Assembly: GCA_964353405.1 (NCBI GenBank)
Contig: CAYGWJ010000337.1
Coordinates: 1 to 52,182, forward strand
DNA: 52,182 nt
Reading direction: 5' to 3'
Origin: an uncultured Anaerolineae bacterium
GTDB taxonomy: Bacteria > Chloroflexota > Anaerolineae > Fen-1058
The notes under the pieces: generated by a model
The model's input: only the letters and a program-made list of their open reading frames with translations
What the model was told of the DNA's origin: nothing
The model's database searches: none
Part shown: in pieces, positions 96 through 50,119 of the stretch
Position numbering within the stretch: the first letter of the stretch is position 1
Layout of the letters: each line of letters opens with the position of its first letter
Position numbers and translations under genes: made by a program

Positions 96-136
96 GGATT
101 TCCGTTGCAGTGAATGGTTTTCCAATGCAGCGTGTC

Positions 137-3320: not shown

Positions 3321-3348
3321 GTCTGATACTTGTCCGAGATGAGTCCGA
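3321..3348. promoter_or_regulatory. Three GTC(C/T)GA direct repeats at 11-bp period; candidate operator
   Basis: gtctga 3321, gtccga 3332, gtccga 3343 in the divergent intergenic region. Confidence 0.45.
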
Positions 3349-3447
3349 AGGGGCATAGACAGAACGAGACGCCAAGACGTAAATTAGAGTCAGCGACTTT
3401 TATCACCTTGCACCGTCAAGACAACACACGACGACAGGAGATCAACC

Positions 3448-4923: not shown

Positions 4924-5018
4924 GTGTGACAGGTGGCGCTGATGAACCCGTGCTGATCGTTTTGGCACTCATGCTCAATGGCGGTCGTTTGAGATGACGC
5001 TTCCCTAGCAGCACATTC

Positions 5019-5082
5019 AGACTTCGGAAGTCGCCAGACGCGCTCCGGTTGGTCTAGGCGCTTCCGGCGACTTCCGAAGTCT
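5019..5082. repeat. REP-like palindrome (agacttcggaagtcgcc...ggcgacttccgaagtct)
   Basis: Perfect 17-bp inverted repeat in the intergenic region. Confidence 0.75.
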
Positions 5083-5112
5083 AAACAGCAACCCAAAAGA
5101 GGAGGAACAAAA

Positions 5113-35742: not shown

Positions 35743-36830
35743 CGGCTGGGCCTCCCGCCGATAATGTTCTTTTCCCAAAGTTCACCGAGGCTATACTCTT
35801 GAAGCCACTGCTTGAGTCGGCGCGTGTTCAGTCGGTTGAACTTGGACTGTCTACCCTCCCGATCAACGACGATGATATCGCGAGGCGAAAACTGATCCAC
35901 CAGCGAGGCAGACTGGGTGGATACAATCACTTGGGTCTGAGCCGCCACGCTCTTTAACATGCTGGCGAGCAATGTGATCGCGTAGGGATGCAGTCCGAGC
36001 TCGGGTTCGTCAATGAGAACTGTGGCGGGCAAGGTGGGCTGAAGCAGGAGCGTCGCCAGGCAGATGAAACGCAGCGTTCCGTCTGAGAGGGTGTGTGCGT
36101 CAAAATACATATCTGAATCTCGCTCGCTCCATTCGAGCTGGATTTTCTTGCGGTTCAGTCTTGAAGGTTGGAGCGCAAAATCATTGAAAAAAGGCGCTAC
36201 CAAGCGGATTGTCTTTGCGATTCTGCCATAGTATTCCCGCTGTACTTCTCGCAGCCAGTAAAGGAACGCGGCGAGGTTTGAGGCATCTGGTCTCAATGCG
36301 GCATTGTCTTCAATGTCGCACGTTGCTTTGATCTTAGCGCTGTCGCTGGTGTCGTGAAAATGATAGACCTTCCAGCTTCTCAAGTCCTTGAGCACATAGT
36401 CGGCGACCTCGCTTTGGACGGCGGCGTCGTGGAGCAGCGTTTCTTTGTGCCCACTGCCAAGATATACATTAAACGGTTGCGGATACTTGTCGCTGTCGTG
36501 AAACCAGCAGCTTTCGTGGGCAAAGACGAGGGTGTCCCCAGCAGACGGCGCCAGCCGGGCTTCGTAGCCGTTGGCTCCAAAGTGCAGCCTGATGACAATT
36601 TCGCTTGTGGCCTTCCGCCCATAATGTAGCAGCCTATCTGCGCCGCCCGATTGGCCGATATAGAGTTGGAGGTTCCCTTCTACAAGATGGTTCAAGAGTT
36701 CAAAAACTGAGATGAAGTTGGTTTTCCCCGCGCCATTCGCGCCGATCATGATATTGAGGTTGCGAAGCAGCAAATCCATTTCTTGGATGGATTTGAACCC
36801 TTGTACTTCGATCCGTTCAAGCGATCTCAT
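35739..36830 (-). CDS. AAA_21-type ABC ATPase
   Basis: GFKSI, IGANGAGKTN, LSDGTLRF, LIDEPELGLHP, QVIVSTQS. Confidence 0.92.
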   Translation of the reverse strand: MRSLERIEVQGFKSIQEMDLLLRNLNIMIGANGAGKTNFISVFELLNHLVEGNLQLYIGQSGGADRLLHYGRKATSEIVIRLHFGANGYEARLAPSAGDTLVFAHESCWFHDSDKYPQPFNVYLGSGHKETLLHDAAVQSEVADYVLKDLRSWKVYHFHDTSDSAKIKATCDIEDNAALRPDASNLAAFLYWLREVQREYYGRIAKTIRLVAPFFNDFALQPSRLNRKKIQLEWSERDSDMYFDAHTLSDGTLRFICLATLLLQPTLPATVLIDEPELGLHPYAITLLASMLKSVAAQTQVIVSTQSASLVDQFSPRDIIVVDREGRQSKFNRLNTRRLKQWLQEYSLGELWEKNIIGGRPSR

Positions 36831-36877
36831 AGATACCTCGCTCAGAATTGTGTGTCCAAGTGTGTCAACGTGCCAAG

Positions 36878-37648
36878 TTAGCCCGATCGTGCGGTGATGA
36901 ACTGGTGTGCCTTTTGCCACACTTGCTCTTTTTCACTGTCCACCCATAGGCAGTGGCCCGAGTTGGTCAGCCAGATCAGCTCTTTGTCCTTCGAAGCGAT
37001 GCGGTCCAAGGCGTACACACCGCTCTTGGGCTTGACGCTCTGGTCGCGGGTGCTCATCAAGATCAGGGCCGGCCGGGTGATCTTGCGCAGATCGCGGCGC
37101 ACCGAATGCTCGAGCAGGTTGAGTTGCTCGACTGCTGCTACAGGCGTGCCCATGTATGACCACAAGTAACGCTCTCGCGCTTCTGGATCGGTCAGGTCAT
37201 CGCCGTCGCGCGCGGGGTCATAAGGATTGAACTGGGTGAAATATTTGATGGCCCACGCCAGCCCCGAGCGCCGGTCCACGGTAAACAGCGCGGGAGCCAT
37301 CGGAACGATCCCAGCAATTTCGGGATGGCGCTCGGCCAGGTGAAGCGTCAGCAATCCGCCCATCGAGCCGCCGCACACAAAGACCTGGCGGCAGCGGCCT
37401 TGGAGCTGCCGGTAAGACTGCTCGACGGCATCGGTCCACTCGTGCCACTTGCGGCGGGCCAGGTCTTGCCAGTTCGTCCCGTGACCGGGCAACAGTGGCC
37501 CGACCACCGTGTGGCCCTTTTGGGCAAGATACTGTCCCATCGGGCGCATCTCGGATGGACTGCCCGTAAAGCCATGAATCAACAGCACGCCGGTCGAGTT
37601 GCCGGGATAATCGAATGCATCGGGTACGGGCAGTGGATAGTTTGTCAT
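36878..37648 (-). CDS. Alpha/beta-hydrolase carboxylesterase (Est30/YvaK-like)
   Basis: HGFTGSP, LPGHG, GGSMGG nucleophile elbow, D and SGH triad residues. Confidence 0.92.
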   Translation of the reverse strand: MTNYPLPVPDAFDYPGNSTGVLLIHGFTGSPSEMRPMGQYLAQKGHTVVGPLLPGHGTNWQDLARRKWHEWTDAVEQSYRQLQGRCRQVFVCGGSMGGLLTLHLAERHPEIAGIVPMAPALFTVDRRSGLAWAIKYFTQFNPYDPARDGDDLTDPEARERYLWSYMGTPVAAVEQLNLLEHSVRRDLRKITRPALILMSTRDQSVKPKSGVYALDRIASKDKELIWLTNSGHCLWVDSEKEQVWQKAHQFITARSG

Positions 37649-38240: not shown

Positions 38241-40688
38241 CTAACGCACGGTGACGGACAGCAGGTTGACGTGGTCTGTGGCCGCGCCAGAGGCGAGTTG
38301 AAGCGGCCAACGCGTCATCGTATCCGGCGAATAGACGCCGAGTTCAAGTTGATAAACTCCGGGCGGCGTGTCGGGCTTGATGGGCGCGCGAACATGCTGA
38401 ACGATCACATCGCCGATTTCCAGTCCGCGCAATGCCGTACCCCAGCCATCATATTGGCCGACGATTTGCAATCCGTCACTCGTGACGTGGGCAAAAAACG
38501 CGATAGGCGGCACCAGATCGCCCGTCACGCGCCAATAGGTCGTCAGGTCGAGCGCATCGCCGCGCGCGACGTAGGGCGATTCGATTCGATAGCCGATAAG
38601 CGCAAGCTTGCCATCGAAATCGGCGGGTAGGCCTTGCGGCATGGGTGCGCGCCACTGCGCCAGTTGCGATTCGACCAGTGGTCGCGCATCAACCATGAGC
38701 GCATCGCCGTCCTTTTGTCCGATGGCACGAAAGGTCCGGCGCAAGTCGCGGTCGAACGGCAGTGGATCGGGCGCGATGTAACGCGCCGGGCCGTTCATTG
38801 CAAAAATGAACACGTCGGGGTTGTCGGCCCACTTGACGATGAGGCGATGTCCGGGTGCGACGCCAAGCGTCTGCGGGTTGACGGCATACGCCGGTGTGCT
38901 GACGATTACGGCGCGGTCCATTGGCGTGTTAGCCGCGTAATCTACTTGGTAGATCAGAATCGAATAGCCCGCGCGCGCGATGGGAGTCTTGTCTCGAAAG
39001 TAAGCGAACAAGTCTTGCTCGCGGTAGACCAAGCCCAGGCGCAGGCTGGTGGCGCTGATGGCGTACCAGCCTGGCTCCGGTGAGTAGGGATTGAACGAGT
39101 CCACCTCCGGCCCGATGACAAAGTGCAAAAAGCCGGGCAGCGGCCAGTAGCGCACGCCATAGGCCGCCGGCAAGGCTGTGCCAAAATATGAAAGGTTCAC
39201 AACCTCAATTTCATTCTCATCCATCCACGCTTTGAGCGCGGGCAAGTCCTGTCCCCAATCCAGGTTCGAGTCCACGAGGATGTTGTGCGCGTTGACTGGT
39301 CCACCGGCTAGTTCATTAAAGTATGAGAGGTGATGAGGAAAGATCAGGACTGTGCTTATCATTTGCCACAGGAAGATAAGGAGACACGCGCCGCTGGACA
39401 AGGTGACAAGGTGAGATTTGAAATTTGAAATTTGAGATTTGAAATTTGCTGTGTTGCCCGCGAGGATGATGACGAACGGCAGAACAGGCAGGATATGCCG
39501 GTAGCCGATGGTCAACGGGCTGAACATGGCGGCGGCCATTGCAAAGGCAGGGGGAATCCACGCGGCCGATGTGCGTTGCCAAATGCGCTTGCTTGCGATG
39601 ACGATGATGCCGACGACAAGAAGGATCAGTGTGGGCAGGGGTGTCTTGAGCGCCAAGGTCACGGGAAAGTAGTACCACCAGCCAGTGCGGCTCACCTGAC
39701 CCATCAGGAACGTTGGGTAGCCTTGTGAGTATTCGGCGTAAACCTTGGCGAGTCCGCGCCAGTAGGTTGCAGCGGGCAGACCGTTGCGGATCTCAAAGCC
39801 ATACACGGCCCAGATGACGAGGAGCGCAATGAGACCTGCGATCGTGAGGGCGAGCAGCCGCTGAAATCTCGTCGCGACACCCAGTCTGTCACTCTGAGCC
39901 GCCGAGCGGCGAAGGGTCACTGTCCTGCGAGAAGGAGATTCTTCGCCGCTTCGCGGCTCAGAATGACAAGGCTGTGTAGAATAGAGCGACGCTTCGCTGC
40001 TTCGCGGCTCAGAATGACAAGGCTTTGTAGGATAGAGCGACGCTGCAAACACAAACATCGGCGCAAGCACGAGTCCGGTGAACTTGGTCCCCATCGCCGC
40101 GCCCGCCGCCACGCCGACCCACACCAGATTCCATCGCGTCGGTTTTTTCAGCCAGGCCCACAGTCGCCACATCGCAATCGTCATTGTGGCGGCCAGGCCC
40201 AGGTCGGTCGTCGAGAGACGCGAGTGGGCGATGAGGTTCGGGTCGAATGCGTACAGCGCCAGCGCGAGGAGGGCGGCGTTGAGGCCGAACAAGTCACGTG
40301 TGAAGCGGAATACGACCGCACCCAGCAGCACGCCCAGCGCGATGATGGGCAAGCGGCCTAGCAGGACCAGCCGCACCGCAATGTCGGAATTGGCTTGCCA
40401 GAGGAACGCATCGCCAAAATCGTCGGGCACGGCGTTTTGCCACGCGGGTATGTCAATCGGCAATGTGGGTTTGAGGAACTCGAGCGGCAGCGCGTTCCAC
40501 ACGTTTACCAGCGGCGGATGCTCGGTCGCAAGGCGCGGGTCGCCTGTGCGGAGATAGGCATAGCCTGCTGCCAGGTGATACTCTTCATCAAACGCCGCCG
40601 AGTTGGCCGGCGAGCCGAGCGCGGCTTGCGCGGCGAAGAGGATAAGCAAGAGTGCGGCGAGTAGGATGTGCCAGGGTTTCAAATGCAA
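38241..40688 (-). CDS. GT39/ArnT-like glycosyltransferase with C-terminal Ig-like domain
   Basis: AFDEEYHL.AGY, EHPPL, KFTG, YFNEL.GG, DSNLDWGQD; contains in-frame repeat insertions. Confidence 0.9.
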   Translation of the reverse strand: MHLKPWHILLAALLLILFAAQAALGSPANSAAFDEEYHLAAGYAYLRTGDPRLATEHPPLVNVWNALPLEFLKPTLPIDIPAWQNAVPDDFGDAFLWQANSDIAVRLVLLGRLPIIALGVLLGAVVFRFTRDLFGLNAALLALALYAFDPNLIAHSRLSTTDLGLAATMTIAMWRLWAWLKKPTRWNLVWVGVAAGAAMGTKFTGLVLAPMFVFAASLYPTKPCHSEPRSSEASLYSTQPCHSEPRSGEESPSRRTVTLRRSAAQSDRLGVATRFQRLLALTIAGLIALLVIWAVYGFEIRNGLPAATYWRGLAKVYAEYSQGYPTFLMGQVSRTGWWYYFPVTLALKTPLPTLILLVVGIIVIASKRIWQRTSAAWIPPAFAMAAAMFSPLTIGYRHILPVLPFVIILAGNTANFKSQISNFKSHLVTLSSGACLLIFLWQMISTVLIFPHHLSYFNELAGGPVNAHNILVDSNLDWGQDLPALKAWMDENEIEVVNLSYFGTALPAAYGVRYWPLPGFLHFVIGPEVDSFNPYSPEPGWYAISATSLRLGLVYREQDLFAYFRDKTPIARAGYSILIYQVDYAANTPMDRAVIVSTPAYAVNPQTLGVAPGHRLIVKWADNPDVFIFAMNGPARYIAPDPLPFDRDLRRTFRAIGQKDGDALMVDARPLVESQLAQWRAPMPQGLPADFDGKLALIGYRIESPYVARGDALDLTTYWRVTGDLVPPIAFFAHVTSDGLQIVGQYDGWGTALRGLEIGDVIVQHVRAPIKPDTPPGVYQLELGVYSPDTMTRWPLQLASGAATDHVNLLSVTVR
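39397..39448. repeat. In-frame octamer and heptamer tandem repeats
   Basis: (gacaaggt)x2 followed by ga(g/a)attt heptamers; encodes NFKSQISNFKSHLVTLS. The same heptamer family occurs at 31-55. Confidence 0.75.
39887..40042. repeat. In-frame REP-like TGTCA..TGACA palindrome plus 51-bp tandem duplication
   Basis: tgtcactctgagccgccgagcggcgaagggtc...gattcttcgccgcttcgcggctcagaatgaca; 39941-39991 is near-duplicated at 39992-40042; sibling element at 50123-50209. Confidence 0.85.
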
Positions 40689-40819
40689 GTCCCAAAGATC
40701 AAGCGCAGCTCAGAAACTCGGCGAGGTCGTTTTGTTCGATTTCTAGTACCCGGCCATGAAACACAGGCAATCTATCTTGACGAAGCTGGAATAGGGTCGT
40801 CATATATAGCTATGGAGAT

Positions 40820-41851
40820 TTATTGAATAGGTTCAAGGATTGCTTTTGCAGGTGGACGCCAAAAATCAAGCAGGTATTCGAATGTCGTTCCCATCGTAAT
40901 ATAGTTCGAGGGCCACCCAAAGATACCGATCCGGTTCACGATGTTGGTGCGATCCCAAATGATCGTATTCCGCAGTTCATATCCGCGTCGTCGCAGCTCT
41001 TGCACTAATGCAACGTGAATTGTGATCCGCTGATTCTCCCACCACATATCCGGCACGTTAATGACACAATGCGCTTTTGGCTTCAAGAGGGGCAGCAATT
41101 GCTCAAAGATTTCTCCCATTGCCGCAGTATATTGTTCCAGCGGCAGCGTTCCAAGATCACGCGCGTCTTGAGAATATTGTTCCACCTTGCCAAGTTGATC
41201 GTTTTTCCGTTCATCGCCACGCCGCGATTTATTCTTGCGCTTTCGATTCAATAGATTCGCGTAGGGTGGTGAAGTCCATATCAAACTCACTGTTTCATGT
41301 GCTATATAACGAGGAATATAAAGCGCGTCATCCTGTAGGGCAATCTGTTGAGCCTGATTGCAGGAATTGTTACTGGCCAGTCGTTCGACACATAGATCAA
41401 CATACTTTTCCTGCAAATCGAATCCGACGGCATTCCTATTGAGGTCTTGTGCTGCAACCAGTGTTGTGCCACTGCCTACGAAAGGGTCCAGAACCAATTC
41501 GCCTTCATGTGTGAATAGCTCAATTATTTTCCTTGCAAGTGCGATTGGAAAAGTGGCTGGGTGTTTCTCTTTATCTCGGACATCGCGCTTCTCATATGAG
41601 AATTGCCATACGCCTAACTGACTCTTTATCCATTCTTTTGCCGTCATGCAATTCAAGTGGTTGGCAGGATGTTCGCAAGTTCTTGTATAGCCGATGTTGA
41701 GGCAAGCTCGATGCAGACCACTCGCTTCCTTGATAGCGCGTGGCAAACCAGTGTCTTGAGGGAATATTTCTTTTCCTGCTTTTGGTGTTGCGGGCTCTTC
41801 TTTCGGAGAATCCGATCTCTTTGGCACTGTCTTACTCGATTTCCCAGACAT
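40820..41851 (-). CDS. Orphan amino-DNA methyltransferase (probably N4-cytosine)
   Basis: HPATFP, LDPFVGSGTT (motif I) precedes WTSPPY (motif IV); visibly AT-richer than flanks; start 41851 or 41860. Confidence 0.9.
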   Translation of the reverse strand: MSGKSSKTVPKRSDSPKEEPATPKAGKEIFPQDTGLPRAIKEASGLHRACLNIGYTRTCEHPANHLNCMTAKEWIKSQLGVWQFSYEKRDVRDKEKHPATFPIALARKIIELFTHEGELVLDPFVGSGTTLVAAQDLNRNAVGFDLQEKYVDLCVERLASNNSCNQAQQIALQDDALYIPRYIAHETVSLIWTSPPYANLLNRKRKNKSRRGDERKNDQLGKVEQYSQDARDLGTLPLEQYTAAMGEIFEQLLPLLKPKAHCVINVPDMWWENQRITIHVALVQELRRRGYELRNTIIWDRTNIVNRIGIFGWPSNYITMGTTFEYLLDFWRPPAKAILEPIQ

Positions 41852-42068
41852 GTTCTTCATCTTGAATGTCGTCAATTTCACTATCTGGCTTGGCATCCCA
41901 CAACCAGGATCTAGCACCATCCTCGTTCTTAATCTCAACTGTTGTTAGGCCAAGCTTGCTGTCATTCTCAAGAGCAATGGCTTGTCGTTCAGCATCGTGA
42001 TAGTCCTGAGCTTCTATCCTTCGCTTGAGAATGACCACCCTGGCATAAGTGAGTGTAAAAGTCGGCAC
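41832..42068 (-). CDS. Small acidic hypothetical protein (78 aa)
   Basis: GAGGAG RBS then GTG; MPTFTLTYARVV...EHVWEIE; overlaps the MTase start. Confidence 0.55.
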   Translation of the reverse strand: MPTFTLTYARVVILKRRIEAQDYHDAERQAIALENDSKLGLTTVEIKNEDGARSWLWDAKPDSEIDDIQDEEHVWEIE

Positions 42069-42377: not shown

Positions 42378-45300
42378 TCACGGCCTTGCTTGCACGCTAA
42401 CCAGTGACGGTGGCTGGAGGCCGGAGACGTCGGGATTGTAGTAATCGTACACCGACGACGGCGGCGCTTGCGCCTTGAGCGGGAACTTGGCCCGCAGCCG
42501 ATACCCAAAGCTGATCTTGTAATCCAGGTTCTCCATGTACAGGATAATCTGCGAACCGGTCAGCTCGTAGCGGCGCACCTTGGTGGCAAGCTGGCTGCTC
42601 TGGCTCACGAGCGCGTCCAGATCCTCGCTCAGCACGTCAAAGCCGGGCGGCACGCCCAGGTCAACGATGGCCCATTGCACCTTGGCGTTCTTGTTGAGCG
42701 TAATGTCCACCTTTGCCGTCATCTCGTCGCCCACGAACAAGTTGGCGTTGTCATACGTCACCTTGACCTCCACCGGCGGTTGAGCCGGAGCGGTCGCGAT
42801 TGACCACGGCACGTAAGCGGAGGTTGTGACCTGGTACATCAGGTTCTCGGTGTTCGAGCCGCTGACGCGCAGGCTCACGCGATTGTCGCCCGATTGCACG
42901 TCGTCAAAGGCGACGACGTGCACCACGTCGGCGTTCTCGGACGTGAGACGCACGGTCTGCGGCGTTCTCCCGTTGAGCGAGACGCTCACCGTCGCATCGG
43001 GCTGTGGCTTGTCTGTGCTCGACGCGGCCAGCAGCGCCTTGAGCGAAAGGATGGTGGCTTGCGTGGACTCCCACGTGCCAAAGCTGTCCTTGGAGCGCGT
43101 GAGGAAGCGCAGGCCCGCTTGAGCCAGGTCGTGGTTGCTCTTGCCGCTCACGAGCGCCTGCGTTGCCAGCGCAGACGTTTCAATGTCGGCCACGTTGCCC
43201 GAAGCGCCCGTGAACGATTGGGCGCGGGCCGTCCAGCGCGCGGTGTCTTGCTCGCGCGTCGCGAACGACGCCAGCTTGGTGAGCGCGGGTTGGGCCGTGC
43301 TGTCACTGGCCGCCGTCAGCGCGTTGGCGACGAGCGCCAGCGTGTACGCATCGTCGGCCTCGCTCCAACGCGAGCGCAGATACGAGAGCGCGCGCTGCGT
43401 GCCAGACTCGTTCCCATAGCCCGCTTCGATCAGCGCCCACGTGATATAGGCCGTGGTGGGCAGCTTGTCGTTCTTGAGCGTCGTCCAGCTTTCCATATAG
43501 CCCGCCGAGCCTTGGCCGCCCCACGATCCGTCGCCGCTTTGTTGACCCAGCAGCCAGCGCGCGGTGCGCTCGATCACGGCGCCATCCACCGCGTACACGT
43601 GCTGCATGTCCGAAAACTCCATCAGCCCATACGCGGTGTGCATCAACGTGGCGGGCGGATTGCCGAACAGACTGAACCCGCCGCCCTCGACTTCATACGT
43701 GAGCAGGCGTTGATAACCGGCCGCGATGTAGGTCTGCGCCTTCATCCGAACTTGCGGCGCGGCGCGGCCCGTGCGATTGAGATAGTCCAGGATCAACACA
43801 TCCGGGTAGAGCGTGGACAAAGTCTGCTCGAAGCAGCCATCGGGCATCCGCAGCAGCGCGTCCAGTCCTTCGACGATTTGCGCAGATGCGCCCGCATAGA
43901 CTTTGACTTGTATGCGCGCGGTTCCATTGATCGCTTGCGCTGGAACGACGACGGTCGCTTCGGTGTCCCCGGTCAACAGGTCGCTGGTCGAGCTACGCAC
44001 CTGCGTGCCGTTCGGCGCCACGCGCACATCTTTGGCGATGGCATCGGACATGGCCGTGCCTCGACCGGTGACGGTCATCCGGCCCAGTCCGAACTGCTTG
44101 ACGCGGATGCGAAAGTAGACCACGTCAATGTCGTTCGCGCCGATGGTGATCGTCTTGGTCTGGTCGTCCATCAGATCGAACCACTCGGCGGACGCAAGCT
44201 CCAACTTGACTTGCTGTGATTCAGGCAGATAGTTGTACACGGCCACAGGCACGGCCACTTCGTCATCCACCGTCAACTGCACGGGCAGGTCGAGGTCAAT
44301 AAAGAAATCCTGGAACACACGCAAGCCGTAGGTCTGTGAGCCGATCTGCCCGTTCTGCGTCGAAGCGAGCGCCGTGAGCCGCCAGGTAGTGATGCTATCG
44401 GCCAGTGGCACGTCGAGCTTTAAACGTCCGTCTTGGTCGGTGAGGGCTTCAGGATTCCAGTACATGGTTTCCGGGAAGAACTGACGCAAGCGCACCGGCT
44501 CGGCAGGCGCGGCTTGACCAGCGGGCTTGGCGACTTGAACTGTTGGCTGTGCTGCGGGCGCTTGGGTCGGCGCGGGTGCGCGGGTGGGCGCTGCTGCCGC
44601 GGGCGCACTGGTTGCAGCCGCCGGAATTTTGGGGTTTGCTTGTCTATCAAATGCCCCAGGCGTTGCTGCCGGGCTACAACCGGCCAGCCAACCGACCGGC
44701 CCGGCGTAGGCCACCGGATTGCCGAGCGTGCGCACAAACAGCGAGTGCGACCCGCTTAGCGCTGCTGTGATGACGATGGGCAGCCACAGGAAGCCGACGA
44801 GCGTAGAGGCCCACGCGGCCGGGCGTTTGCCTTCCAGGCGCAATCCTTGTCCAAAGATCACCAGCACCAAGATCATCCCGGCGAACGTCACGATCGTCCA
44901 TGTCAACGCGCGGCCTTTCAGGTCGCCGCCGTTTTCGGCCACGTAAGCCATCAGCACGCCGAGCAGCGTGTAGGCCATCGTGAGGCCGGTCATCAACTGC
45001 GCGCGCGGGTCCTCGTTGCGCCAGGCATAGATCGCAAAAGCAATCCACGCGGACAGCCAGACCAGCGCGGCCAGGATCACGGCCAGCGGGCCCAAGATCG
45101 CGTTGGCGCTCCACAGTCCAATGTACAGGCCGATGGCGCAGAATGGCGCGGCCAGGATGGCCAGGAGCGACCACTTGCCGACCGTGCGCATGGCTTTGCC
45201 CAGCACGCCGCTCGGGCGCAGTCCCCAGATGAGGACGATGAGCGCGAGGAGGGGCAGAATGATGAGCGTCTTGCTCAGCGTGCCGGAAAGCTGGATGAAA

Positions 45301-47588
45301 GCTTTTACCTTTTGACTCGCCAGGTCGGACAGCTTTTCAAGACGCGAACGGATGTCGAACGCCAGGTTGGTGACGGGGCTGCCCACCCATGAAGCCTTGG
45401 CGGCTTTATCCTGCGCCTGGATCACTTGCGGCGGCGTCGAGGCCGAAAGCAGCGTCGGCACGTCAAAACCTTTGACGTCCACCTTAGGTTCGAGCAATTC
45501 CTTTTCGAGCAAAAAGTAGAGCCTGGCAAAGCCGGGCGCCTGATCTTGAACGGCAAAGACAGATTCGTCCACGATGCCGATGCCTAGCGCGCTCTGAATC
45601 GGCTGGCCGCCCTGCAGCGTCGTCGTCATCGCCATGCGCGCCGTCTGGCCGGGGCGATACACGTCATGGTCGGCGCCAATGCCCACGTTCACTTCTTGCG
45701 CCTGATCTATCACAACCAGCCGCGTGTCACGCGCGAGGCCGGTACCCGGCATGACGACGTAAGCATGTAATTCGAGCGTGCCGAACATGGCCGTGTCCAG
45801 GTCAACTGCCAAGACCGCGCGACCATCTTTGATCGGCGCGCTGAACGCGGCGATGGTCTGTTGGTCTTTAACCAGATCAAGGTAGATTGCGCCGGACTGG
45901 ACGGTGGTCAACACTTCGGCCTTGAGCGTCTCGCCCACGCGATAGGCGGCGCGCTCGGTGCGGAGCAGCACTGTTCCGGCGCCAGCTTCGGTGTTGAGGT
46001 TGACGGTCTTGCGCGCCGATGCGCCGGTATTGTCCTGCGCGCTGATGTCGAGCGTCGTTCCTGTAGACGACGTGGGGACGAAGCGATATTCGGCCAGTCC
46101 ATATTCACCGGTCTGTAGGGGCGGGGTTACCCCGCCCCGAGCGTCATTAACGTTCACCGTCGCTTTGGCCGGGCGTCCATCGGGATATGAGACGAGGAGG
46201 TAGACAATGTTCTCCACACCCGGGCGCAGCGTGCCGCTTTCGGCAACAGCGTCAATCACCAGCGGGTCGCGCGCGATGGTGAGCACCTGGCTCACTTGTT
46301 CGCGGTGCTCGGCCTGATCAATGACCGCCACTTGCAGATCAAAGGTTGCTGTGCCCTTGTCGCCCGCGATGGCCAGCGGCGGCAGGTTGAACTCAAAGTG
46401 GAATTGTCCCTGGGCATTGGTCTGCCCAAAGAGCTCAACGGTCTGGCGGCGATTCGGGTCATATGTGTACCCATGCAGCTCAACGCGCGCTTCGGACGTG
46501 GGCTTGCCGAAAAAGTAGTCGGCCTGCACCTCACCTTTGACGCGCGCCCCGGGCGAATAGTACGGTCGGTCAGTCTCGATATTCACCTTGAACTTGGGCA
46601 ACACATACGGCTTGACCTCGACGCTGCGCTCGCTGGTCGTGTCGCCCAGCACGGCTTGCAGGTTGTACTTGCCGGTGATGAGCTGCGAGGCCAGTTGGAA
46701 ATCAGCGCTGGCGATGCCAAAGGCCGACGTGTTGACTTGTTGCCGGAAGACTTTGTCGCCGTTTGGATTGCTGGCGATGAACTCGATCCCCTGGCTGGCG
46801 ACGGCGTGATGGTCGAACGCATTCAGCGCCAGCGCGCGCAGGTGGATCATCTGGCCGGGCTGATAGATGGGCTTGTCGGTAGAGAGGTACAGCTTGTACG
46901 AGCGCTTGATCTGCACCGGGCGCTCGATATGATCTTGCCCCAGCGACGAACGGGTCCGCACGACGAGCGTGGCTTTGCCTTCCATGTCCGCCGGAATGTC
47001 AAGCGAGACGTTGGCCGAGCCGGTCGTGTCGGTCTTGCCGTTGTAGACGACGGGAGCTTGCGCACTTGTGAGTGTTACATTGACATCGGCTCCCGCGATG
47101 GGTTGACCGTCGCTCACCTTGCGCACGACGACACGCACACTGGCCGGGCTGCCGGGCGCGAATTGATCCTGGCCCATCACAATCGTCTCTTGATCGTCGG
47201 CGCGCGCGGTGAACGTCGTCGCGTTCCACGCGGCCACGCTAAAGATCGCCACGAGCAGCGCCAGCGTCGCCTGCGCCAGCGCATAGCGCCTTTTCACGAG
47301 CGGCTGGAACAGCTCGGCCAGGTTCACCAACAGCCCACGCAGCGAAGGGCGGTTTTGCTCGGCGCGGATGCGCTCGCGGGTGCGGACGCTGGCGGCATCG
47401 TTCAGCTTGACCTTCGACATGCGCGTCTTGAACGTGGTGTCCACATCGGCGTGAAACGATTGTGCGAGCGCCAGTTCCCCGCGGCACGACTCGCACTCGT
47501 CCAGGTGCGCCTTGACGCGCGAGGTCTCCTCCGGCGAAAGCGCGCCGTCGAGATAGGCAATGAGGTCTTGCGTCACATGACCCTTCAT
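42378..47588 (-). CDS. Zinc-finger anti-sigma (ZAS) / alpha-2-macroglobulin thioester protein fusion with internal 6-TM bundle
   Basis: YLDGALSPEE..HLDECESC (HxxxCxxC), then a TM. A2M motifs: TDKPIYQPGQ, YVLPKF, VDES, FFPET, DSITTW, FQDFFIDLDLP, MPDGCFEQT thioester, DLGVPPGF, VYDYYNP. Confidence 0.92.
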   Translation of the reverse strand: MKGHVTQDLIAYLDGALSPEETSRVKAHLDECESCRGELALAQSFHADVDTTFKTRMSKVKLNDAASVRTRERIRAEQNRPSLRGLLVNLAELFQPLVKRRYALAQATLALLVAIFSVAAWNATTFTARADDQETIVMGQDQFAPGSPASVRVVVRKVSDGQPIAGADVNVTLTSAQAPVVYNGKTDTTGSANVSLDIPADMEGKATLVVRTRSSLGQDHIERPVQIKRSYKLYLSTDKPIYQPGQMIHLRALALNAFDHHAVASQGIEFIASNPNGDKVFRQQVNTSAFGIASADFQLASQLITGKYNLQAVLGDTTSERSVEVKPYVLPKFKVNIETDRPYYSPGARVKGEVQADYFFGKPTSEARVELHGYTYDPNRRQTVELFGQTNAQGQFHFEFNLPPLAIAGDKGTATFDLQVAVIDQAEHREQVSQVLTIARDPLVIDAVAESGTLRPGVENIVYLLVSYPDGRPAKATVNVNDARGGVTPPLQTGEYGLAEYRFVPTSSTGTTLDISAQDNTGASARKTVNLNTEAGAGTVLLRTERAAYRVGETLKAEVLTTVQSGAIYLDLVKDQQTIAAFSAPIKDGRAVLAVDLDTAMFGTLELHAYVVMPGTGLARDTRLVVIDQAQEVNVGIGADHDVYRPGQTARMAMTTTLQGGQPIQSALGIGIVDESVFAVQDQAPGFARLYFLLEKELLEPKVDVKGFDVPTLLSASTPPQVIQAQDKAAKASWVGSPVTNLAFDIRSRLEKLSDLASQKVKAFIQLSGTLSKTLIILPLLALIVLIWGLRPSGVLGKAMRTVGKWSLLAILAAPFCAIGLYIGLWSANAILGPLAVILAALVWLSAWIAFAIYAWRNEDPRAQLMTGLTMAYTLLGVLMAYVAENGGDLKGRALTWTIVTFAGMILVLVIFGQGLRLEGKRPAAWASTLVGFLWLPIVITAALSGSHSLFVRTLGNPVAYAGPVGWLAGCSPAATPGAFDRQANPKIPAAATSAPAAAAPTRAPAPTQAPAAQPTVQVAKPAGQAAPAEPVRLRQFFPETMYWNPEALTDQDGRLKLDVPLADSITTWRLTALASTQNGQIGSQTYGLRVFQDFFIDLDLPVQLTVDDEVAVPVAVYNYLPESQQVKLELASAEWFDLMDDQTKTITIGANDIDVVYFRIRVKQFGLGRMTVTGRGTAMSDAIAKDVRVAPNGTQVRSSTSDLLTGDTEATVVVPAQAINGTARIQVKVYAGASAQIVEGLDALLRMPDGCFEQTLSTLYPDVLILDYLNRTGRAAPQVRMKAQTYIAAGYQRLLTYEVEGGGFSLFGNPPATLMHTAYGLMEFSDMQHVYAVDGAVIERTARWLLGQQSGDGSWGGQGSAGYMESWTTLKNDKLPTTAYITWALIEAGYGNESGTQRALSYLRSRWSEADDAYTLALVANALTAASDSTAQPALTKLASFATREQDTARWTARAQSFTGASGNVADIETSALATQALVSGKSNHDLAQAGLRFLTRSKDSFGTWESTQATILSLKALLAASSTDKPQPDATVSVSLNGRTPQTVRLTSENADVVHVVAFDDVQSGDNRVSLRVSGSNTENLMYQVTTSAYVPWSIATAPAQPPVEVKVTYDNANLFVGDEMTAKVDITLNKNAKVQWAIVDLGVPPGFDVLSEDLDALVSQSSQLATKVRRYELTGSQIILYMENLDYKISFGYRLRAKFPLKAQAPPSSVYDYYNPDVSGLQPPSLVSVQARP

Positions 47589-48196
47589 AGTTCCACCCCC
47601 GTACCCGTAGAGACGGCCCGCCGGGCCGTCTCTACCCGGGCCGTCTCTACCACAGGTGAGAGGCTTTTCTGCAAGGCCTGGTGCGCGTAAAACAGCCGCG
47701 ACTTGACCGTGCCCTGGCTGATGCTCAATGCCTCGGCGATCTCATCGTAGGCGAGGTCGGATAGATAACGCAACGCGATGATCTCTCGCTGCGCGTCGGG
47801 CAAGCCATCCACTGCCTGCCAGATCGCATCGCGCATCTCGCGCTTGAGCGCCGAGTGTTCGGGGTCGCCGTTGACGCCTGCGACCAGCTCGTCGGCCAGC
47901 TCGTCCCAGTCGGCAGAAGGCGGACGTTTGCGCCTGAAGCGGCTGCGGCAGCGGTTGACGGTGATGCGATACAGCCACGTCTCGAACCGCGCCGGGCCGT
48001 CTAGCTTGAAGCGCGGCAGGGCGTGAAGGAGATCGAGGAACGTCTCTTGCGTGGCTTCTTCGGCATCACCGCTGTTGCGGGTGACAAAGAACGCCACGCG
48101 ATAGACATAGTCCTTGTACCGCTCGAACAGCGCGTCGAACGCGCCGGGCTGGCCGCGTTGAAAGCGGCGGATAAGGTCATCGGTGGCAACAGGCAT
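47585..48196 (-). CDS. ECF RNA polymerase sigma factor
   Basis: AFDALFERY, DAEEATQETF, FETWLYRITVN, LPDAQREIIALRY..LAYDEIAEAL.ISQGTVKSRL; GGGGAGG RBS; ATGA overlap with the anti-sigma fusion. Confidence 0.96.
   Translation of the reverse strand: MPVATDDLIRRFQRGQPGAFDALFERYKDYVYRVAFFVTRNSGDAEEATQETFLDLLHALPRFKLDGPARFETWLYRITVNRCRSRFRRKRPPSADWDELADELVAGVNGDPEHSALKREMRDAIWQAVDGLPDAQREIIALRYLSDLAYDEIAEALSISQGTVKSRLFYAHQALQKSLSPVVETARVETARRAVSTGTGVEL
47607..47650. repeat. GTAG-type REP palindrome plus half copy inside the sigma factor 3' end
   Basis: gtagagacggcccg-c-cgggccgtctctac perfect 14-bp IR, then ccgggccgtctctac; encodes VETARVETARRAVST. Confidence 0.85.
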
Positions 48197-48232
48197 GGCC
48201 GCCTCCCCTCTGTGAGTCTGGGTTGCTGCTAA

Positions 48233-48262
48233 TTACACGCAGCAACGGGGGTAAATGTTCAA
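48233..48262 (-). promoter_or_regulatory. Putative ECF promoter driving the sigma/anti-sigma-A2M operon
   Basis: Minus strand TTGAACA-tttacccccgttg-CTGCGTGTAA. Confidence 0.8.
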
Positions 48263-48354
48263 TTTCAGTATATGCCCACTTTTGGGGATTGACAAGCCCC
48301 TTAATTCGGAGTAAAACCATTACGGAGCTAAGTGGGCAACCTGGCCCGGCGCGG

Positions 48355-48384
48355 TTGAACAAAATCGCCCCGACCTGCGTGTAA
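48355..48384 (+). promoter_or_regulatory. Putative ECF promoter driving the vWA lipoprotein
   Basis: TTGAACA-aaatcgccccgac-CTGCGTGTAA; boxes and spacing identical to 48233-48262. Confidence 0.8.
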
Positions 48385-48445
48385 CAAACAGATTCAACGA
48401 ACAAGCCGGTCACGCCGAACCGGCCCAGTATGCAGGAGGAAAAAA

Positions 48446-50119
48446 ATGAAGACCCGCTTGATGCTTAATATCTTATTCGCCGTCATATCTGTTGCCGTGT
48501 TGATTCTCCCTGCCTGTGCGCCTGCGGCAACGCCCGCGCCGGTTCAGGTGCAGAGCAAGCCCGGTGCCACGTCAGCACCCGCACAAGCTCCCAGAGCCGC
48601 CCAGCCGACCCAGGCGCCCGCCGCGCCCGGTGCGTTCGCTGCGACGCCTATCCCCGTCGCCGTGGTGCGCCGGCCAGGCTCCGGTGGACAGGTGATCGTG
48701 ACGCCCTCGTATCAAACGCCCAACCCCGACTTGCCGCCCGAGTCCTGGCCGGCCGACATGTTCTTCAGGCAGTATGGCGTCAACCCGCTGATGGACACCC
48801 AGGAGGAGCACCTCTCTACCTTCGCGATGGATGTGGACACGGCCTCGTACACCTTGATGCGCAAGTACATCACCGATGGCCGCCTGCCGCCGCCCGAATC
48901 CGTCCGCGTGGAAGAGTACGTCAACTACTTTAACTATGACTATCCTGGGCCGGAAACGGGTGCGTTCGCGATTCATCTCGAAGGCGCTCCATCGCCTTTC
49001 CGCGAGGGATACTATGTACTGCGTGTCGGCCTGCAAGGCAAGCGCATTGACGCTTCCCAGCGCAAGGACGCCGTGCTGACTTTCCTGATTGACGTGTCCG
49101 GTTCGATGGGCGACAACAACAAGCTGGAGACGGTCAAGCAGGCATTGGGCATGTTGGTCAATGAACTGCGCCCGACTGATATGGTTGGCATTGTCGTCTT
49201 TACCACGCAGGCGCGTGAGGTGCTACAGCCTACGCCCGCTTCGGAAAAAAGCCGCATCATGTCCGTCATCAATAGCCTGCGACCAGAGAATTCTACCAAC
49301 GTGCAAGATGGATTGACGCTGGCATACAAGATGGCCTCGCGCGCCTATCGCAAGGGCTTGATCAACCACGTGGTTCTGTGCTCCGATGGCGTCGCCAACG
49401 TCGCTGGCACGAGTGCGGATACGATTCTCGCGCAGGCCAAGGAATATGCCACACGCGACATTACCCTTTCGACCGTTGGCGTAGGTATGGGGAATTACAA
49501 CGATGTGATCCTGGAGCAATTGGCTGACAAAGGCAATGGCAACTATTCCTACGTGGACACACTCGAACAGGCGCACCGCGTGTTCGTGGAGAACTTGACC
49601 GGCACCCTGCAAGTCATCGCCAAGGATGCCAAAGTGCAGGTGGATTTCAATCCCGCCGTCGTCAGCCGCTTCCGCCTGATCGGATACGAGAACCGCGCGA
49701 TTGAGAATAAGGACTTTCGCAACGACACGGTGGACGCGGGCGAGGTCGGCGCAGGGCACAACGTTACCGCTCTGTACGAGGTCAAGTTCAAGGATGAGGT
49801 TCCGTCGAGCCAGCAGGGCAACGCGCTGATCGTGTACGTGCGGTATCAGGATATCGAGACCAGCCAGGTGCGTGAGATCAACCAGACATTTGGTCGCACG
49901 CAATTCGCCGGCTCGTTCGATGTGACTTCGCCGCGCTTCAAGCTGGCCGCCGCCGTGGCCGAATATGCCGAGATTCTGCGCAGCAGCTACTGGGCCAGAG
50001 GTTCGAGCCTGGAGAGTGTTCAAGGTCTGGCTCAGAGAGTGCGGCCGGCTTTGCCAAACGACCAGGACGTGGCCGAGTTCGCGCAACTCGTCAGCCGCGC
50101 CAGCCAGTTGCGCAAATAA
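48446..50119 (+). CDS. YfbK-like vWA lipoprotein (vWF_A + VWA + DUF3520)
   Basis: Lipobox LPAC; STFAMDVDTASY, VRVEEYVNYF.YDY, MIDAS DVSGSM, SDGVAN, IAKDAKVQVDFNP, LIGYENR, DAGEVGAGH.VTALYE. Confidence 0.95.
   Translation: MKTRLMLNILFAVISVAVLILPACAPAATPAPVQVQSKPGATSAPAQAPRAAQPTQAPAAPGAFAATPIPVAVVRRPGSGGQVIVTPSYQTPNPDLPPESWPADMFFRQYGVNPLMDTQEEHLSTFAMDVDTASYTLMRKYITDGRLPPPESVRVEEYVNYFNYDYPGPETGAFAIHLEGAPSPFREGYYVLRVGLQGKRIDASQRKDAVLTFLIDVSGSMGDNNKLETVKQALGMLVNELRPTDMVGIVVFTTQAREVLQPTPASEKSRIMSVINSLRPENSTNVQDGLTLAYKMASRAYRKGLINHVVLCSDGVANVAGTSADTILAQAKEYATRDITLSTVGVGMGNYNDVILEQLADKGNGNYSYVDTLEQAHRVFVENLTGTLQVIAKDAKVQVDFNPAVVSRFRLIGYENRAIENKDFRNDTVDAGEVGAGHNVTALYEVKFKDEVPSSQQGNALIVYVRYQDIETSQVREINQTFGRTQFAGSFDVTSPRFKLAAAVAEYAEILRSSYWARGSSLESVQGLAQRVRPALPNDQDVAEFAQLVSRASQLRK

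What the first reader, a model, noticed from the sequence alone, without database searches (positions are those of the whole stretch)
42378..50119. Candidate new system: ECF sigma + anti-sigma/alpha-2-macroglobulin fusion + divergent vWA lipoprotein
Seen: an ECF sigma overlaps (ATGA) a 1736-aa gene that starts with an HxxxCxxC zinc anti-sigma domain and a TM. The gene continues as a complete A2M/thioester protein (MG domains, FPET, GCFEQ, receptor-binding end). A YfbK-like vWA lipoprotein with an intact MIDAS (DVSGS) is divergent and shares the promoter motif. Established: bacterial A2Ms such as E. coli YfhM/ECAM are protease traps triggered by bait cleavage, ZAS domains sequester ECF sigmas, and thioester proteins pair with vWA domains in complement (C3b with factor B). 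Inference: this is a protease-trap receptor that turns attack by an extracellular protease into a transcriptional response inducing itself and the vWA partner. I do not know of a described anti-sigma/A2M fusion.
Basis: partly seen in the sequence, partly recalled or inferred. Interest (0 to 1): 0.93.

Follow-up and report, generated by a model that had tools for sequence, protein, structure and literature searches.

The report
Anti-sigma factor fused to membrane protease trap
A sediment bacterium couples a gene switch (an ECF sigma factor) to a membrane protein that joins the switch's inhibitor to a complete thioester protease trap, and the same switch also appears to drive a neighbouring vWA lipoprotein gene, so this looks like an undescribed surface alarm-and-defence circuit.

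Summary
An ECF sigma gene (47585-48196, -) overlaps by ATGA a 1736-aa gene (42378-47588, -). That gene encodes zf-HC2, one TM, MG domains, A2M, a TED with GCFEQ and a receptor-binding end. A YfbK-type vWA lipoprotein gene is divergent.

The fusion is not an assembly artefact. It forms one clade, with 110 of 113 database clusters carrying the zinc motif and 33 metagenome contigs reading through it. An orthologous sigma lies directly upstream in 35 of 36 loci.

The motif TGAAC-N16-GC(A/G)TGTAA occurs three times in the 5.6-Mb genome. Two of those sites face the sigma and the vWA gene. The motif also precedes vWA orthologues placed elsewhere in three other genomes, and a second A2M paralogue in three genomes. 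The regulon link is therefore well supported.

- The canonical bait region is replaced by a six-helix membrane bundle plus a hypervariable linker behind an internal lipobox.
- Most fused relatives have lost the TED.
- Many unfused paralogues carry TGA plus a SECIS-like hairpin at the thioester cysteine.

Protease sensing is still inference. The proposed complement-like TED:vWA pairing has no evidence behind it.

The parts
47585..48196 (-). ECF sigma factor gene (203 aa)
   Evidence: Pfam Sigma70_r2, r4_2, Sigma70_ECF; NCBIfam sigma70-ECF 1.1e-33. Orthologues of 50-97% identity lie directly upstream of the fused gene in 35 of 36 metagenome loci and in 4 of 4 related genomes that hold the gene's 5' end.
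42378..47588 (-). Anti-sigma/A2M fusion gene (1736 aa); its ATG overlaps the sigma stop (ATGA)
   Evidence: The -4 overlap is conserved in 5 of 5 close loci.
47481..47576 (-). zf-HC2 (ZAS) anti-sigma domain, aa 5-36, H28-x3-C32-x2-C35
   Evidence: Pfam PF13490 4.9e-11. H28, C32 and C35 are invariant in the 5-sequence alignment A3.
47223..47288 (-). TM1, aa about 101-122, preceded by KRR (cytoplasmic side)
   Evidence: Hydropathy peaks. One N-terminal TM in 117 of 121 family proteins.
45309..47201 (-). Extracytoplasmic MG domains and bait-region domain (aa about 130-760)
   Evidence: Pfam MG4, MG2, MG3, A2M_BRD.
44754..45284 (-). Six-helix membrane bundle inserted at the bait/ANA position (aa about 769-945)
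   Evidence: Six hydropathy peaks. AlphaFold2 gives six long helices at pLDDT 84-98. No solved fold at E<=0.001.
44676..44687 (-). Internal lipobox-like L968-A-G-C971
   Evidence: Present in 24 of 24 ZAS-type proteins and in 7 of 97 others. Lipidation or cleavage is not tested.
44484..44675 (-). Hypervariable Pro/Ala/Thr-rich linker (aa about 972-1035); candidate bait
   Evidence: Length 38-112 aa across 18 relatives, majority fraction 0.30 against 0.58-0.64 in the flanking domains. pLDDT below 50.
44196..44468 (-). A2M (MG7) domain, starts with FFPET
   Evidence: Pfam PF00207 1.8e-22. Aligns to human A2M from residue 730 and to the C3b alpha' chain from residue 12.
43032..43877 (-). Thioester domain; G-C1252-F-E-Q at 43824-43838
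   Evidence: PF07678 4.7e-45. GCFEQ is present in 121 of 121 family proteins.
42426..42674 (-). A2M receptor-binding (MG8-like) end
   Evidence: PF07677 4.6e-11.
48233..48261 (-). Promoter motif TGAAC-N16-GCGTGTAA, 37 nt upstream of the sigma ATG
   Evidence: The same motif lies upstream of the sigma in 29 of 36 metagenome loci and in G010, G004, G060, G045, G063 and G064.
48356..48384 (+). Second copy of the motif, 62 nt upstream of the vWA ATG
   Evidence: It is conserved upstream of vWA orthologues in L153, L155, L157, G010:C170, G063:C113 and G064:C105.
48446..50119 (+). YfbK-type vWA lipoprotein (557 aa); lipobox L-P-A-C24; MIDAS DVSGS at 49091-49105
   Evidence: Pfam PF12450, PF00092, PF12034. 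Invariant MIDAS residues.

Best explanation
This is an autoregulated ECF sigma/anti-sigma module of an Anaerolineae-type bacterium. The anti-sigma factor is a cytoplasmic zinc (ZAS) domain joined through one TM helix to a surface-exposed, membrane-embedded alpha-2-macroglobulin-type thioester protein.

Topology (inferred from hydropathy and charge). ZAS is inside. MG1-6 are outside. A six-helix bundle then dips through the membrane and returns. The lipobox-like Cys971, the hypervariable linker, MG7, the TED with its thioester and the receptor-binding end are outside.

Regulon (shown by comparative genomics). The sigma's promoter drives its own operon and a YfbK-type vWA lipoprotein. In relatives it also drives a second, unfused A2M paralogue.

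Most likely mechanism (inferred):
1. At rest the ZAS domain holds the sigma at the membrane.
2. An extracellular protease cuts the exposed linker, or otherwise the ectodomain.
3. The cut ectodomain makes the anti-sigma a substrate for regulated membrane proteolysis, as in RseA or RsiW.
4. The freed sigma resupplies the trap and induces the vWA lipoprotein.

In this window the sensor and the covalent trap are one protein. In the derived TED-less relatives the sensor keeps only MG1-7, the bundle and the linker, and the trap is a separate sigma-dependent gene.

My odds: functional sigma/anti-sigma pair 0.9; vWA as a regulon member 0.85; protease cleavage as the trigger about 0.4.
For: - Domains over Pfam cut-offs.
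- ATGA coupling, conserved in 5 of 5 close loci.
- Single origin of the fusion: 22 ZAS tips fall in one clade of 26 with support 1.0. The four others are 2 fragments and 2 H-x5-C-x2-C variants.
- Sigma upstream in 35 of 36 loci and the zinc motif in 35 of 36.
- 110 of 113 database clusters carry the zinc motif.
- Motif statistics: 3 genome hits against about 0.18 expected. G063 and G064 have 4 hits each with 0 control hits, and two genomes without the fusion (G065, G066) have 0 hits.
- Targets:
  - vWA in G000, G010, G063 and G064.
  - The A2M paralogue in G010, G063 and G064.
  - A META lipoprotein followed by an HtrA-like protease in G060.
- The linker is hypervariable and disordered and sits at the bait/ANA position.
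- GCFEQ is kept in 121 of 121 family proteins.
Against: - No experiment and no expression data exist for this system.
- Sigma:ZAS binding was not modelled or tested here.
- No canonical bait is present.
- The thioester is dispensable for the anti-sigma role in most relatives: 91 of 110 ZAS-bearing entries lack it, although some of those are fragments. 11 of 17 complete metagenome ORFs are TED-less forms of 1151-1211 aa that end after MG7.
- The six-helix bundle has no known function and no structural relative.
- vWA is absent from the flanks of the more distant fused loci. No close vWA orthologue was found in G004, which is 85% complete.
- 7 of 36 loci lack the strict promoter motif.
Confidence: 0.45

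Rival explanations
1. The module is a general envelope-stress ECF system. The anti-sigma is degraded by the usual site-1/site-2 cascade in response to membrane or wall damage. The A2M part is only an effector that became fused to the regulator, for example by fusion of an anti-sigma gene with a downstream regulon gene that already had an N-terminal TM anchor.
For: - Unfused family members have the same architecture with only an N-terminal TM anchor.
- In G060 the regulon holds a META lipoprotein and an HtrA-like protease, which are typical stress genes.
- TED-less forms show that the trap chemistry is not needed for regulation.
Against: - TED-less anti-sigmas still keep about 1000 aa of MG1-7, the six-helix bundle, the lipobox and the linker. 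That is hard to explain if the ectodomain were only cargo.
- The general family has no conserved sigma neighbour: sigma hits in 3 of 81 sources including the window itself, and no conserved neighbour cluster.
Confidence: 0.25
2. The module is a thiol/redox switch. The ZAS domain releases zinc and the sigma upon oxidation, as RsrA does, and the A2M part is irrelevant to signalling.
For: The HxxxCxxC motif is conserved. NCBIfam gives a weak RsrA match, 29.7 bits against a cut-off of 62.5.
Against: - The protein is membrane-anchored with a large ectodomain. From recall, known membrane ZAS factors such as RsiW act by proteolysis rather than oxidation.
- The regulon holds surface proteins, not thiol-repair genes.
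Confidence: 0.08
3. The module is a complement-like tagging system. The activated thioester attaches covalently to a foreign surface and the vWA lipoprotein docks on it through its MIDAS, as factor B or CR3 do on C3 fragments.
For: - Co-regulation of a thioester protein and a MIDAS-intact vWA protein in four genomes.
- The closest solved sequences are eukaryotic TEPs: CD109, A2ML1, A2M, TEP1, C4 and C3.
Against: - There is no C345C domain and no protease domain on the vWA protein.
- The vWA family is very large, with 7996 hits, and is mostly unlinked to A2M genes.
- TED-less sensors also co-occur with vWA.
Confidence: 0.05
4. The fusion is an assembly or gene-calling artefact.
For: The window comes from a 499-contig MAG with 3.6% contamination.
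Against: - 33 independent metagenome contigs read through the ZAS-MG junction in one frame without a stop.
- Full-length orthologues exist in G010 and G004.
- L153 matches the window over the first 240 aa at 100% protein identity.
- Contigs of two runs from different studies bridge the sigma/ZAS junction.
Confidence: 0.01

Closest known systems
RsiW/SigW and RseA/SigE: ECF sigma factors held by single-pass anti-sigma factors that are destroyed by regulated proteolysis (recalled knowledge)
   Same: An ECF sigma is co-transcribed with a membrane anti-sigma that has an N-terminal cytoplasmic inhibitory domain (zf-HC2, as in RsiW). The promoter is autoregulatory with an AAC-type -35 and a CGT-type -10.
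   Different: The ectodomain here is a roughly 1600-aa thioester A2M that re-enters the membrane six times. No site-1 signal or protease is known for it. The regulon is built around protease traps and a vWA lipoprotein.
Eukaryotic thioester proteins CD109, A2ML1, A2M, insect TEP1 and C3/C4
   Same: These are the best solved sequence relatives (CD109 8s3o_A at 8.3e-68). MG domains, A2M/MG7, TED with CxEQ and the receptor-binding end are shared. Like CD109, the protein is tethered to the cell surface; that CD109 is GPI-anchored is recalled.
   Different: The bait (A2M) or ANA (C3/C4/C5) position is occupied by a six-helix membrane bundle plus a linker. A cytoplasmic anti-sigma domain is attached. 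The host is prokaryotic.
Bacterial A2Ms of the ECAM/YfhM and MagD types (recalled: periplasmic lipoproteins, the former beside pbpC)
   Same: It is a bacterial protease-trap candidate anchored to the cytoplasmic membrane. The thioester motif is present, as in ECAM.
   Different: The bacterial-specific Pfam models bMG3, bMG5 and bMG10 score below their cut-offs. The anchor is an N-terminal TM, not an N-terminal lipobox. The flanking genes are a DNA methylase, PMT_2 and GroEL, not a PBP. No bacterial A2M is among the 60 best solved hits.
ECF289-type anti-sigma factors carrying DUF3520 fused to a von Willebrand domain (Casas-Pastor et al. 2021, PMC7826278; one passage seen)
   Same: The same vWA + DUF3520 (YfbK_C) module is tied to ECF signalling.
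   Different: Here the module is a separate lipoprotein that is a target of the sigma, not the anti-sigma itself.
Bacterial selenoproteins with Cys homologues (applies to the paralogues, not to the window's gene)
   Same: There is an in-frame TGA at the position of a catalytic Cys. A hairpin starts 10-11 nt downstream. selA, selB and tRNA-Sec are present.
   Different: The Sec would replace the cysteine of an internal thioester, giving a selenoester. I found no description of that.

Membership tests
ECF (group 4) sigma-70 factors | Only sigma-2 and sigma-4 domains, about 200 aa | tested here: met
   Sigma70_r2 23-91, r4_2 123-169, Sigma70_ECF 7-179; TIGR02937 at 116 bits against a cut-off of 42.9.
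ECF (group 4) sigma-70 factors | Autoregulatory promoter with conserved -35 and -10 elements upstream of its own gene | tested here: met
   TGAAC-N16-GC[AG]TGTAA lies upstream of the sigma in the window and in 29 of 36 metagenome loci. Transcription itself was not measured.
ECF (group 4) sigma-70 factors | Assignment to a numbered ECF group | not testable with these tools
   No ECF-group HMMs were on hand. All NCBIfam equivalogs (RpoE, SigW and others) score below their cut-offs.
Class I anti-sigma domain, ZAS subfamily | H-x3-C-x2-C zinc motif in an N-terminal helical domain | tested here: met
   PF13490 at 43 bits against a cut-off of 22.2; HLDECESC at aa 28; motif invariant in A3.
Class I anti-sigma domain, ZAS subfamily | Binds and inhibits its cognate sigma | not tested
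   Inferred from gene coupling and 35 of 36 co-occurrence.
Alpha-2-macroglobulin / thioester-containing proteins | MG-domain core, A2M (MG7), TED, receptor-binding domain | tested here: met
   All are over the Pfam cut-offs. CD109 matches at 8.3e-68.
Alpha-2-macroglobulin / thioester-containing proteins | CxEQ thioester motif | tested here: met
   GCFEQ at 1251-1255, present in 121 of 121 relatives. Bond formation is not testable here.
Alpha-2-macroglobulin / thioester-containing proteins | Exposed soluble bait region between the MG6 halves | tested here: not met
   The position holds six TM helices plus a disordered linker. The linker may act as a bait; this is not tested.
Bacterial ECAM/YfhM-type A2M | N-terminal lipoprotein signal, bacterial MG domains, pbpC neighbour | tested here: not met
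   The N-terminus is ZAS plus a TM. bMG3, bMG5 and bMG10 are below their cut-offs. The neighbours are a methylase, PMT_2 and GroEL.
YfbK-like vWA proteins | PF12450 + VWA + PF12034 (DUF3520) with an intact MIDAS | tested here: met
   DxSxS, T and D are invariant in 28 sequences.
Complement C3b / factor B pair | C345C domain on the thioester protein; protease domain on the vWA partner | tested here: not met
   Neither domain was found by Pfam.
Bacterial selenoproteins (paralogues in relatives only) | In-frame TGA aligned to Cys in homologues, a downstream SECIS hairpin, and Sec machinery in the genome | tested here: met
   - TGA in 17 of 74 loci.
- A perfect stem of 6 bp or more in 17 of 17 TGA loci against 0 of 57 Cys loci.
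- One compensatory change, in L093.
- selB in 5 of 5 genomes, selA in 4 of 5, tRNA-Sec in 5 of 5.
- Incorporation of Sec is not testable here.

The most novel reading that the evidence does not exclude
This is a bacterial surface-immunity circuit built from a complement/A2M-type protein. The A2M-derived receptor would be split or lipid-anchored at its internal lipobox, much as C3 and C4 are cut into two chains at the same position. It would report cleavage of its hypervariable linker across the membrane through the six-helix bundle. That frees an ECF sigma, which induces fresh traps and a vWA lipoprotein. In relatives the induced traps include A2Ms whose thioester cysteine is selenocysteine, giving a more reactive selenoester warhead.
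Probability: 0.2. Interest if true: 0.92.

Novelty: new variant of a known kind. Interest (0 to 1): 0.78.

Why it matters
ECF anti-sigma factors are known with many sensor domains. A thioester protease trap as the sensor would be a new way of turning proteolytic attack into transcription. It would also give bacterial A2Ms, whose physiology is poorly understood, a defined regulon.

The work exposes a large family of A2Ms threaded through the membrane at the bait position: 1054 hits at E<=0.001 among 8000 scored candidates. The listed and sampled six-helix members are mostly Chloroflexota/Anaerolineae. It also exposes a subfamily that appears to use selenocysteine in place of the thioester cysteine. 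If confirmed, that would be the first natural protein selenoester I know of. The promoter motif, the small regulon and the modular protein make the hypothesis directly testable by reconstitution.

Tried and rejected
- **TED:vWA complex model (collected at 109).** The job covered A2M aa 1230-1736 with vWA aa 100-557 and Mg. The verdict was 'no answer' (score 0.00), which is no evidence either way.
- **Protein atlas on the six-helix region.** No usable hit.
- **Foldseek of the model against PDB.** 0 matches at E<=0.001, only generic helical bundles.
- **Expression.** No RNA holder was listed, so nothing can be said about expression.
- **Read laying.** It gave only short contigs. They bridge the sigma/ZAS junction (X2 47541-47719, X3 47398-47705) but none spans the whole stretch.
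- **Conserved neighbours of the general A2M family.** None was found in 80 loci. The top clusters were antisense or fragment ORFs of the A2M gene itself.
- **Sigma, vWA or ZAS near unfused family genes.** Sigma hits in 3, vWA hits in 3 and ZAS hits in 1 of 81 sources, the window itself included in each count.
- **Other motif hits in G000 (C107, C94, C420).** I saw no convincing downstream gene and treat them as chance.
- **Six identical motif-like hits in G010.** They lie in a repeat at or near contig ends. I set them aside as a repeat element.
- **G010:C284 hit.** The downstream ORF was not identified.
- **A 49-50-aa ORF behind the motif in G063 and G064.** It had no convincing match in G000.
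- **Literature.** Searches and text look-ups found no anti-sigma/A2M fusion, no membrane-threaded bacterial A2M and no Sec-A2M. Supplements, for example the tables of PMC7826278, are closed and might list such architectures.
- **Database names.** Automatic annotations such as 'anti-sigma factor RsiW', 'zf-HC2 domain-containing protein' and 'MG2 domain-containing protein' do exist for relatives.
- **Unpublished genome.** G014 enters only the tally (50 of 61 genomes with a match). No other claim rests on it.

Full report
**What is in the window.**
- The 203-aa protein is an ECF sigma factor: Sigma70_r2, r4_2 and Sigma70_ECF, plus TIGR02937 at 116 bits.
- Its stop overlaps by ATGA the start of a 1736-aa gene.
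- That gene's product matches zf-HC2 (aa 5-36, HLDECESC), MG4, MG2, MG3, A2M_BRD, A2M, TED_complement (4.7e-45; G-C1252-F-E-Q) and A2M_recep. All are over the curated cut-offs.
- The divergent 557-aa gene encodes a lipoprotein (L-P-A-C24) with vWF_A (PF12450), VWA and YfbK_C. Its MIDAS residues are invariant across 28 homologues.
- The flanking genes are ordinary: a DNA methylase in a low-GC patch, PMT_2 glycosyltransferases and GroEL.

Between A2M_BRD and the FFPET start of the A2M/MG7 domain lie six strongly hydrophobic segments (aa about 769-945).
- They are followed by a short conserved stretch that ends in a lipobox-like L-A-G-C971.
- Next comes a Pro/Ala/Thr-rich linker.
- AlphaFold2 on a 41-sequence alignment gives six long helices at pLDDT 84-98 and a linker below 50.
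- The FFPET region aligns to human A2M from residue 730 and to residue 12 of the C3b alpha' chain. The insertion therefore occupies the place of the A2M bait and the C3 ANA domain. The numbering of the human bait is recalled.
- An even number of helices, with positive charges on alternate loops (read from the sequence), puts ZAS in the cytoplasm and both A2M halves outside. That topology is inferred.
- The bundle has no structural or feature-based relative.

**Family context.**
- The protein belongs to a very large family: 1054 hits at E<=0.001 among 8000 scored candidates, with 121 sequences examined.
- All 121 keep GCFEQ. 103 of the 121 show one N-terminal TM plus six central TM peaks.
- Genome contigs hold 564 relatives. 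Among the best 80 loci, the Chloroflexota-type genes carry the insertion. Cousins from Armatimonadota, Hydrogenedentota, WOR-3 and others are about 100 aa shorter in this region and show no central TM peaks.
- The 60 best solved sequence relatives are all eukaryotic thioester proteins, led by CD109. The bacterial-specific Pfam MG models fall below their cut-offs.
- The general family has no conserved neighbour.

**The fusion is real and has one origin.**
- In a tree of 116 family proteins, the 22 with H-x3-C-x2-C fall in one clade of 26 tips with support 1.0. The other four are two N-terminally cut fragments and two H-x5-C-x2-C variants.
- Full-length orthologues occur in related genomes G010 and G004. 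5'-containing pieces occur in G060 and G045. In all four, an orthologous sigma of 55-86% identity lies directly upstream.
- A metagenome scan gave 36 loci with both ZAS and MG matches:
  - 33 read through in one frame without a stop.
  - 35 have the zinc motif.
  - 35 have the sigma upstream. The exception starts inside the gene.
  - 29 have the promoter motif.
- A profile search of the 5.8-billion-protein collection listed 113 clusters, of which 110 have the zinc motif.
- Short contigs from two independent studies bridge the sigma/ZAS junction.

**The regulon.**
- Upstream of the sigma in five orthologous loci, and upstream of the vWA gene, stands TGAAC-N16-GC(A/G)TGTAA.
- In the whole 5.58-Mb genome the strict motif occurs three times against about 0.18 expected. 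Two of the three are the divergent pair at 48233-48261 (-) and 48356-48384 (+). I saw no convincing downstream gene for the third.
- All five close metagenome loci keep the divergent pair:
  - The downstream gene is the YfbK-type vWA lipoprotein in L153, L155 and L157.
  - Only its first codons are visible in L154.
  - In L156 it is a different vWA-domain lipoprotein behind the same signal peptide.
- The motif also precedes vWA orthologues that are not adjacent to the sigma:
  - In G010 it is on another contig.
  - In G063 it lies downstream of the operon with its own motif.
  - In G064 it is on another contig.
- It precedes an unfused A2M paralogue in G010, G063 and G064.
- In G060 it precedes a lipoprotein with six META domains, followed by an HtrA-like protease.
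- G063 and G064 have four hits each and no hit of the reversed control pattern. G065 and G066 have only unfused A2Ms and no hit.
- I take the vWA lipoprotein and the A2M paralogue as conserved targets. This is inferred from motif conservation, because transcription was not measured.

**A derived subclade that bears on the mechanism.**
- 17 metagenome loci hold a complete ORF. Of these, 4 are full-length with GCFEQ, and 11 are 1151-1211 aa ending about 150 aa after FPET at TAA, TAG or TGA. The last 2 (L165 at 1428 aa and L174 at 1082 aa) are other variants without FPET. The 357-aa L185 and 206-aa L188 reads, which also end at a stop but break the ZAS-MG frame, are left out of this count.
- G063 and G064 have the same short form. 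Pfam finds zf-HC2, MG2, MG3, A2M_BRD and A2M but no TED.
- These 13 TED-less forms are monophyletic and nested inside the fused clade, with node support 0.71.
- In the database list, 91 of the 110 zinc-motif entries lack GC.EQ, though some are fragments.
- The window's full-length form is therefore the older and rarer type. The thioester is not needed for the anti-sigma role.
- The short forms keep the MG core, the six-helix bundle, the lipobox and the variable linker.
- Where the sensor lost its TED (G063, G064), a full-length A2M paralogue carries the sigma's motif.

**How it most likely works.**
- Shown: the domain content, the coupling, the recurrence and the motif distribution.
- Inferred from knowledge of ECF systems: ZAS sequesters the sigma at the membrane, and release needs destruction of the anti-sigma.
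- My proposal, at about 0.4: the exposed hypervariable linker, or the ectodomain more broadly, is the bait, and its cleavage by a foreign protease starts that destruction. The sigma then resupplies the trap and induces the vWA lipoprotein.
- The roles of the six-helix bundle and of the vWA protein are open.
- The main rival is generic envelope-stress control with the A2M as cargo, at 0.25.
- Redox control through ZAS and a complement-like TED:vWA pairing rank lower. The single complex job on TED:vWA returned no verdict.

**Two side findings.**
- *Internal lipobox.* The L-x-[GS]-C motif before the linker is present in 24 of 24 ZAS-type proteins and in 7 of 97 others. If Lgt and Lsp act on it, the protein would be lipid-anchored or cut into two chains at the position where C3 and C4 are processed. 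That comparison is recalled, and the idea is untested.
- *Selenocysteine at the thioester position.*
  - In unfused paralogues the thioester cysteine codon is TGA in 17 of 74 loci. The same holds in six further related genomes.
  - All 17 carry a perfect stem of 6-7 bp that starts 10-11 nt after the TGA. None of the 57 Cys loci has a stem of 6 bp or more.
  - L093 shows a compensatory change in the stem.
  - selB is present in 5 of 5 genomes tested, selA in 4 of 5 and tRNA-Sec in 5 of 5. aragorn calls a tRNA-SeC(tca) in G000.
  - Two selenoproteome reviews do not mention macroglobulins or thioesters (text look-ups). Three full-text searches found nothing relevant.
  - The window's own gene has Cys.

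**Comparison and novelty.**
- The sigma/anti-sigma logic is that of known ECF systems. The sensor domain is new.
- My searches found no description of an anti-sigma/A2M fusion. They found none in the main texts of the two ECF classification papers either. Their supplements could not be seen.
- One of those papers notes anti-sigma factors carrying DUF3520 plus a von Willebrand domain in group ECF289 (passage seen). That ties the YfbK-type module to ECF signalling in another way.
- I rate the finding as a new variant of a known kind, with interest 0.78. The membrane-threaded A2M family and the Sec variants add to its value.

Noticed in passing
L005-L008, L011, L013, L015, L019, L022, L026, L035, L038, L039, L042, L045, L047, L052; L089-L094: In unfused paralogues of the A2M family the thioester cysteine codon is TGA (context LPHG*FEQS). 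A perfect hairpin of 6-7 bp starts 10-11 nt downstream, in 17 of 17 TGA loci against 0 of 57 Cys loci. selA, selB and tRNA-Sec are present in the genomes tested. This is a candidate selenocysteine 'selenoester' A2M, and I found it in no paper.
   Followed up: partly
L159-L161, L166, L168-L170, L173, L177, L187, L194, L225, L226: There is a monophyletic subclade of ZAS-fused proteins of about 1150-1220 aa. They end after the A2M/MG7 domain and lack CUB, TED and the receptor-binding domain. Such TED-less forms are 91 of the 110 ZAS-bearing database entries listed.
   Followed up: partly
window 44676-44687 (-), aa 968-971: An internal lipobox-like L-A-G-C follows the six-helix bundle. After it comes SPAATP, much like the mature N-terminus of the neighbouring lipoprotein. 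It occurs in 24 of 24 ZAS-type proteins and 7 of 97 others. It may be an internal lipidation or signal-peptidase II site.
   Followed up: partly
L041, L043, L048, L049, L053-L062, L066, L070, L071, L079: Family members from Armatimonadota, Hydrogenedentota, WOR-3, Planctomycetota and others lack the six central TM peaks and are about 100 aa shorter between DESVF and FPET. The membrane insertion therefore looks like a Chloroflexota-type trait.
   Followed up: partly
L152 (G060:C27:30900-36900) 178-4014 and 4154-5533: In G060 the sigma-type motif precedes a 1278-aa lipoprotein with six META domains and DUF4377, followed by an HtrA-like Trypsin_2 + PDZ protease.
   Followed up: partly
L229 1300-1452 (-), L230 1576-1725 (+): In G063 and G064 a fourth motif copy precedes a conserved 49-50-aa hydrophobic ORF. 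L230 holds a second copy of that ORF about 1.1 kb downstream. G000 has no convincing match.
   Followed up: partly
L156 about 1-1404 (-): The signal peptide (MKTRSMLN...LPAC) and the promoter are the same as for the YfbK-type vWA gene. The mature protein is a different vWA-domain protein (MIDAS DATGS), as if the body had been exchanged.
   Followed up: no
L155 5881-7304: A response-regulator-like ORF, up to 413 aa in the open frame, is inserted between the vWA gene and the sigma in one close relative.
   Followed up: no
G010: C117, C274, C410, C411, C472 (two sites): Six identical copies of a sequence that fits the motif (GAACGTATTTCTATACGGTTGCGTGTAA) lie at or near contig ends. It is probably a repeat or insertion element that matches by chance.
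   Followed up: no
window 40001-42000: GC drops to 0.52 against about 0.60 elsewhere. The region holds an N6/N4 DNA methylase gene (40820-41938, -) just downstream of the A2M gene. An AAA_21 (AbiEii-like) ATPase lies at 35739-36920. This may be a small acquired insert.
   Followed up: no
P0131/P0005 and P0150/P0023: A vWA homologue and a ZAS-A2M protein share the same longest-contig length (22477 and 19871). This hints that they sit on one contig in two further metagenomes.
   Followed up: no
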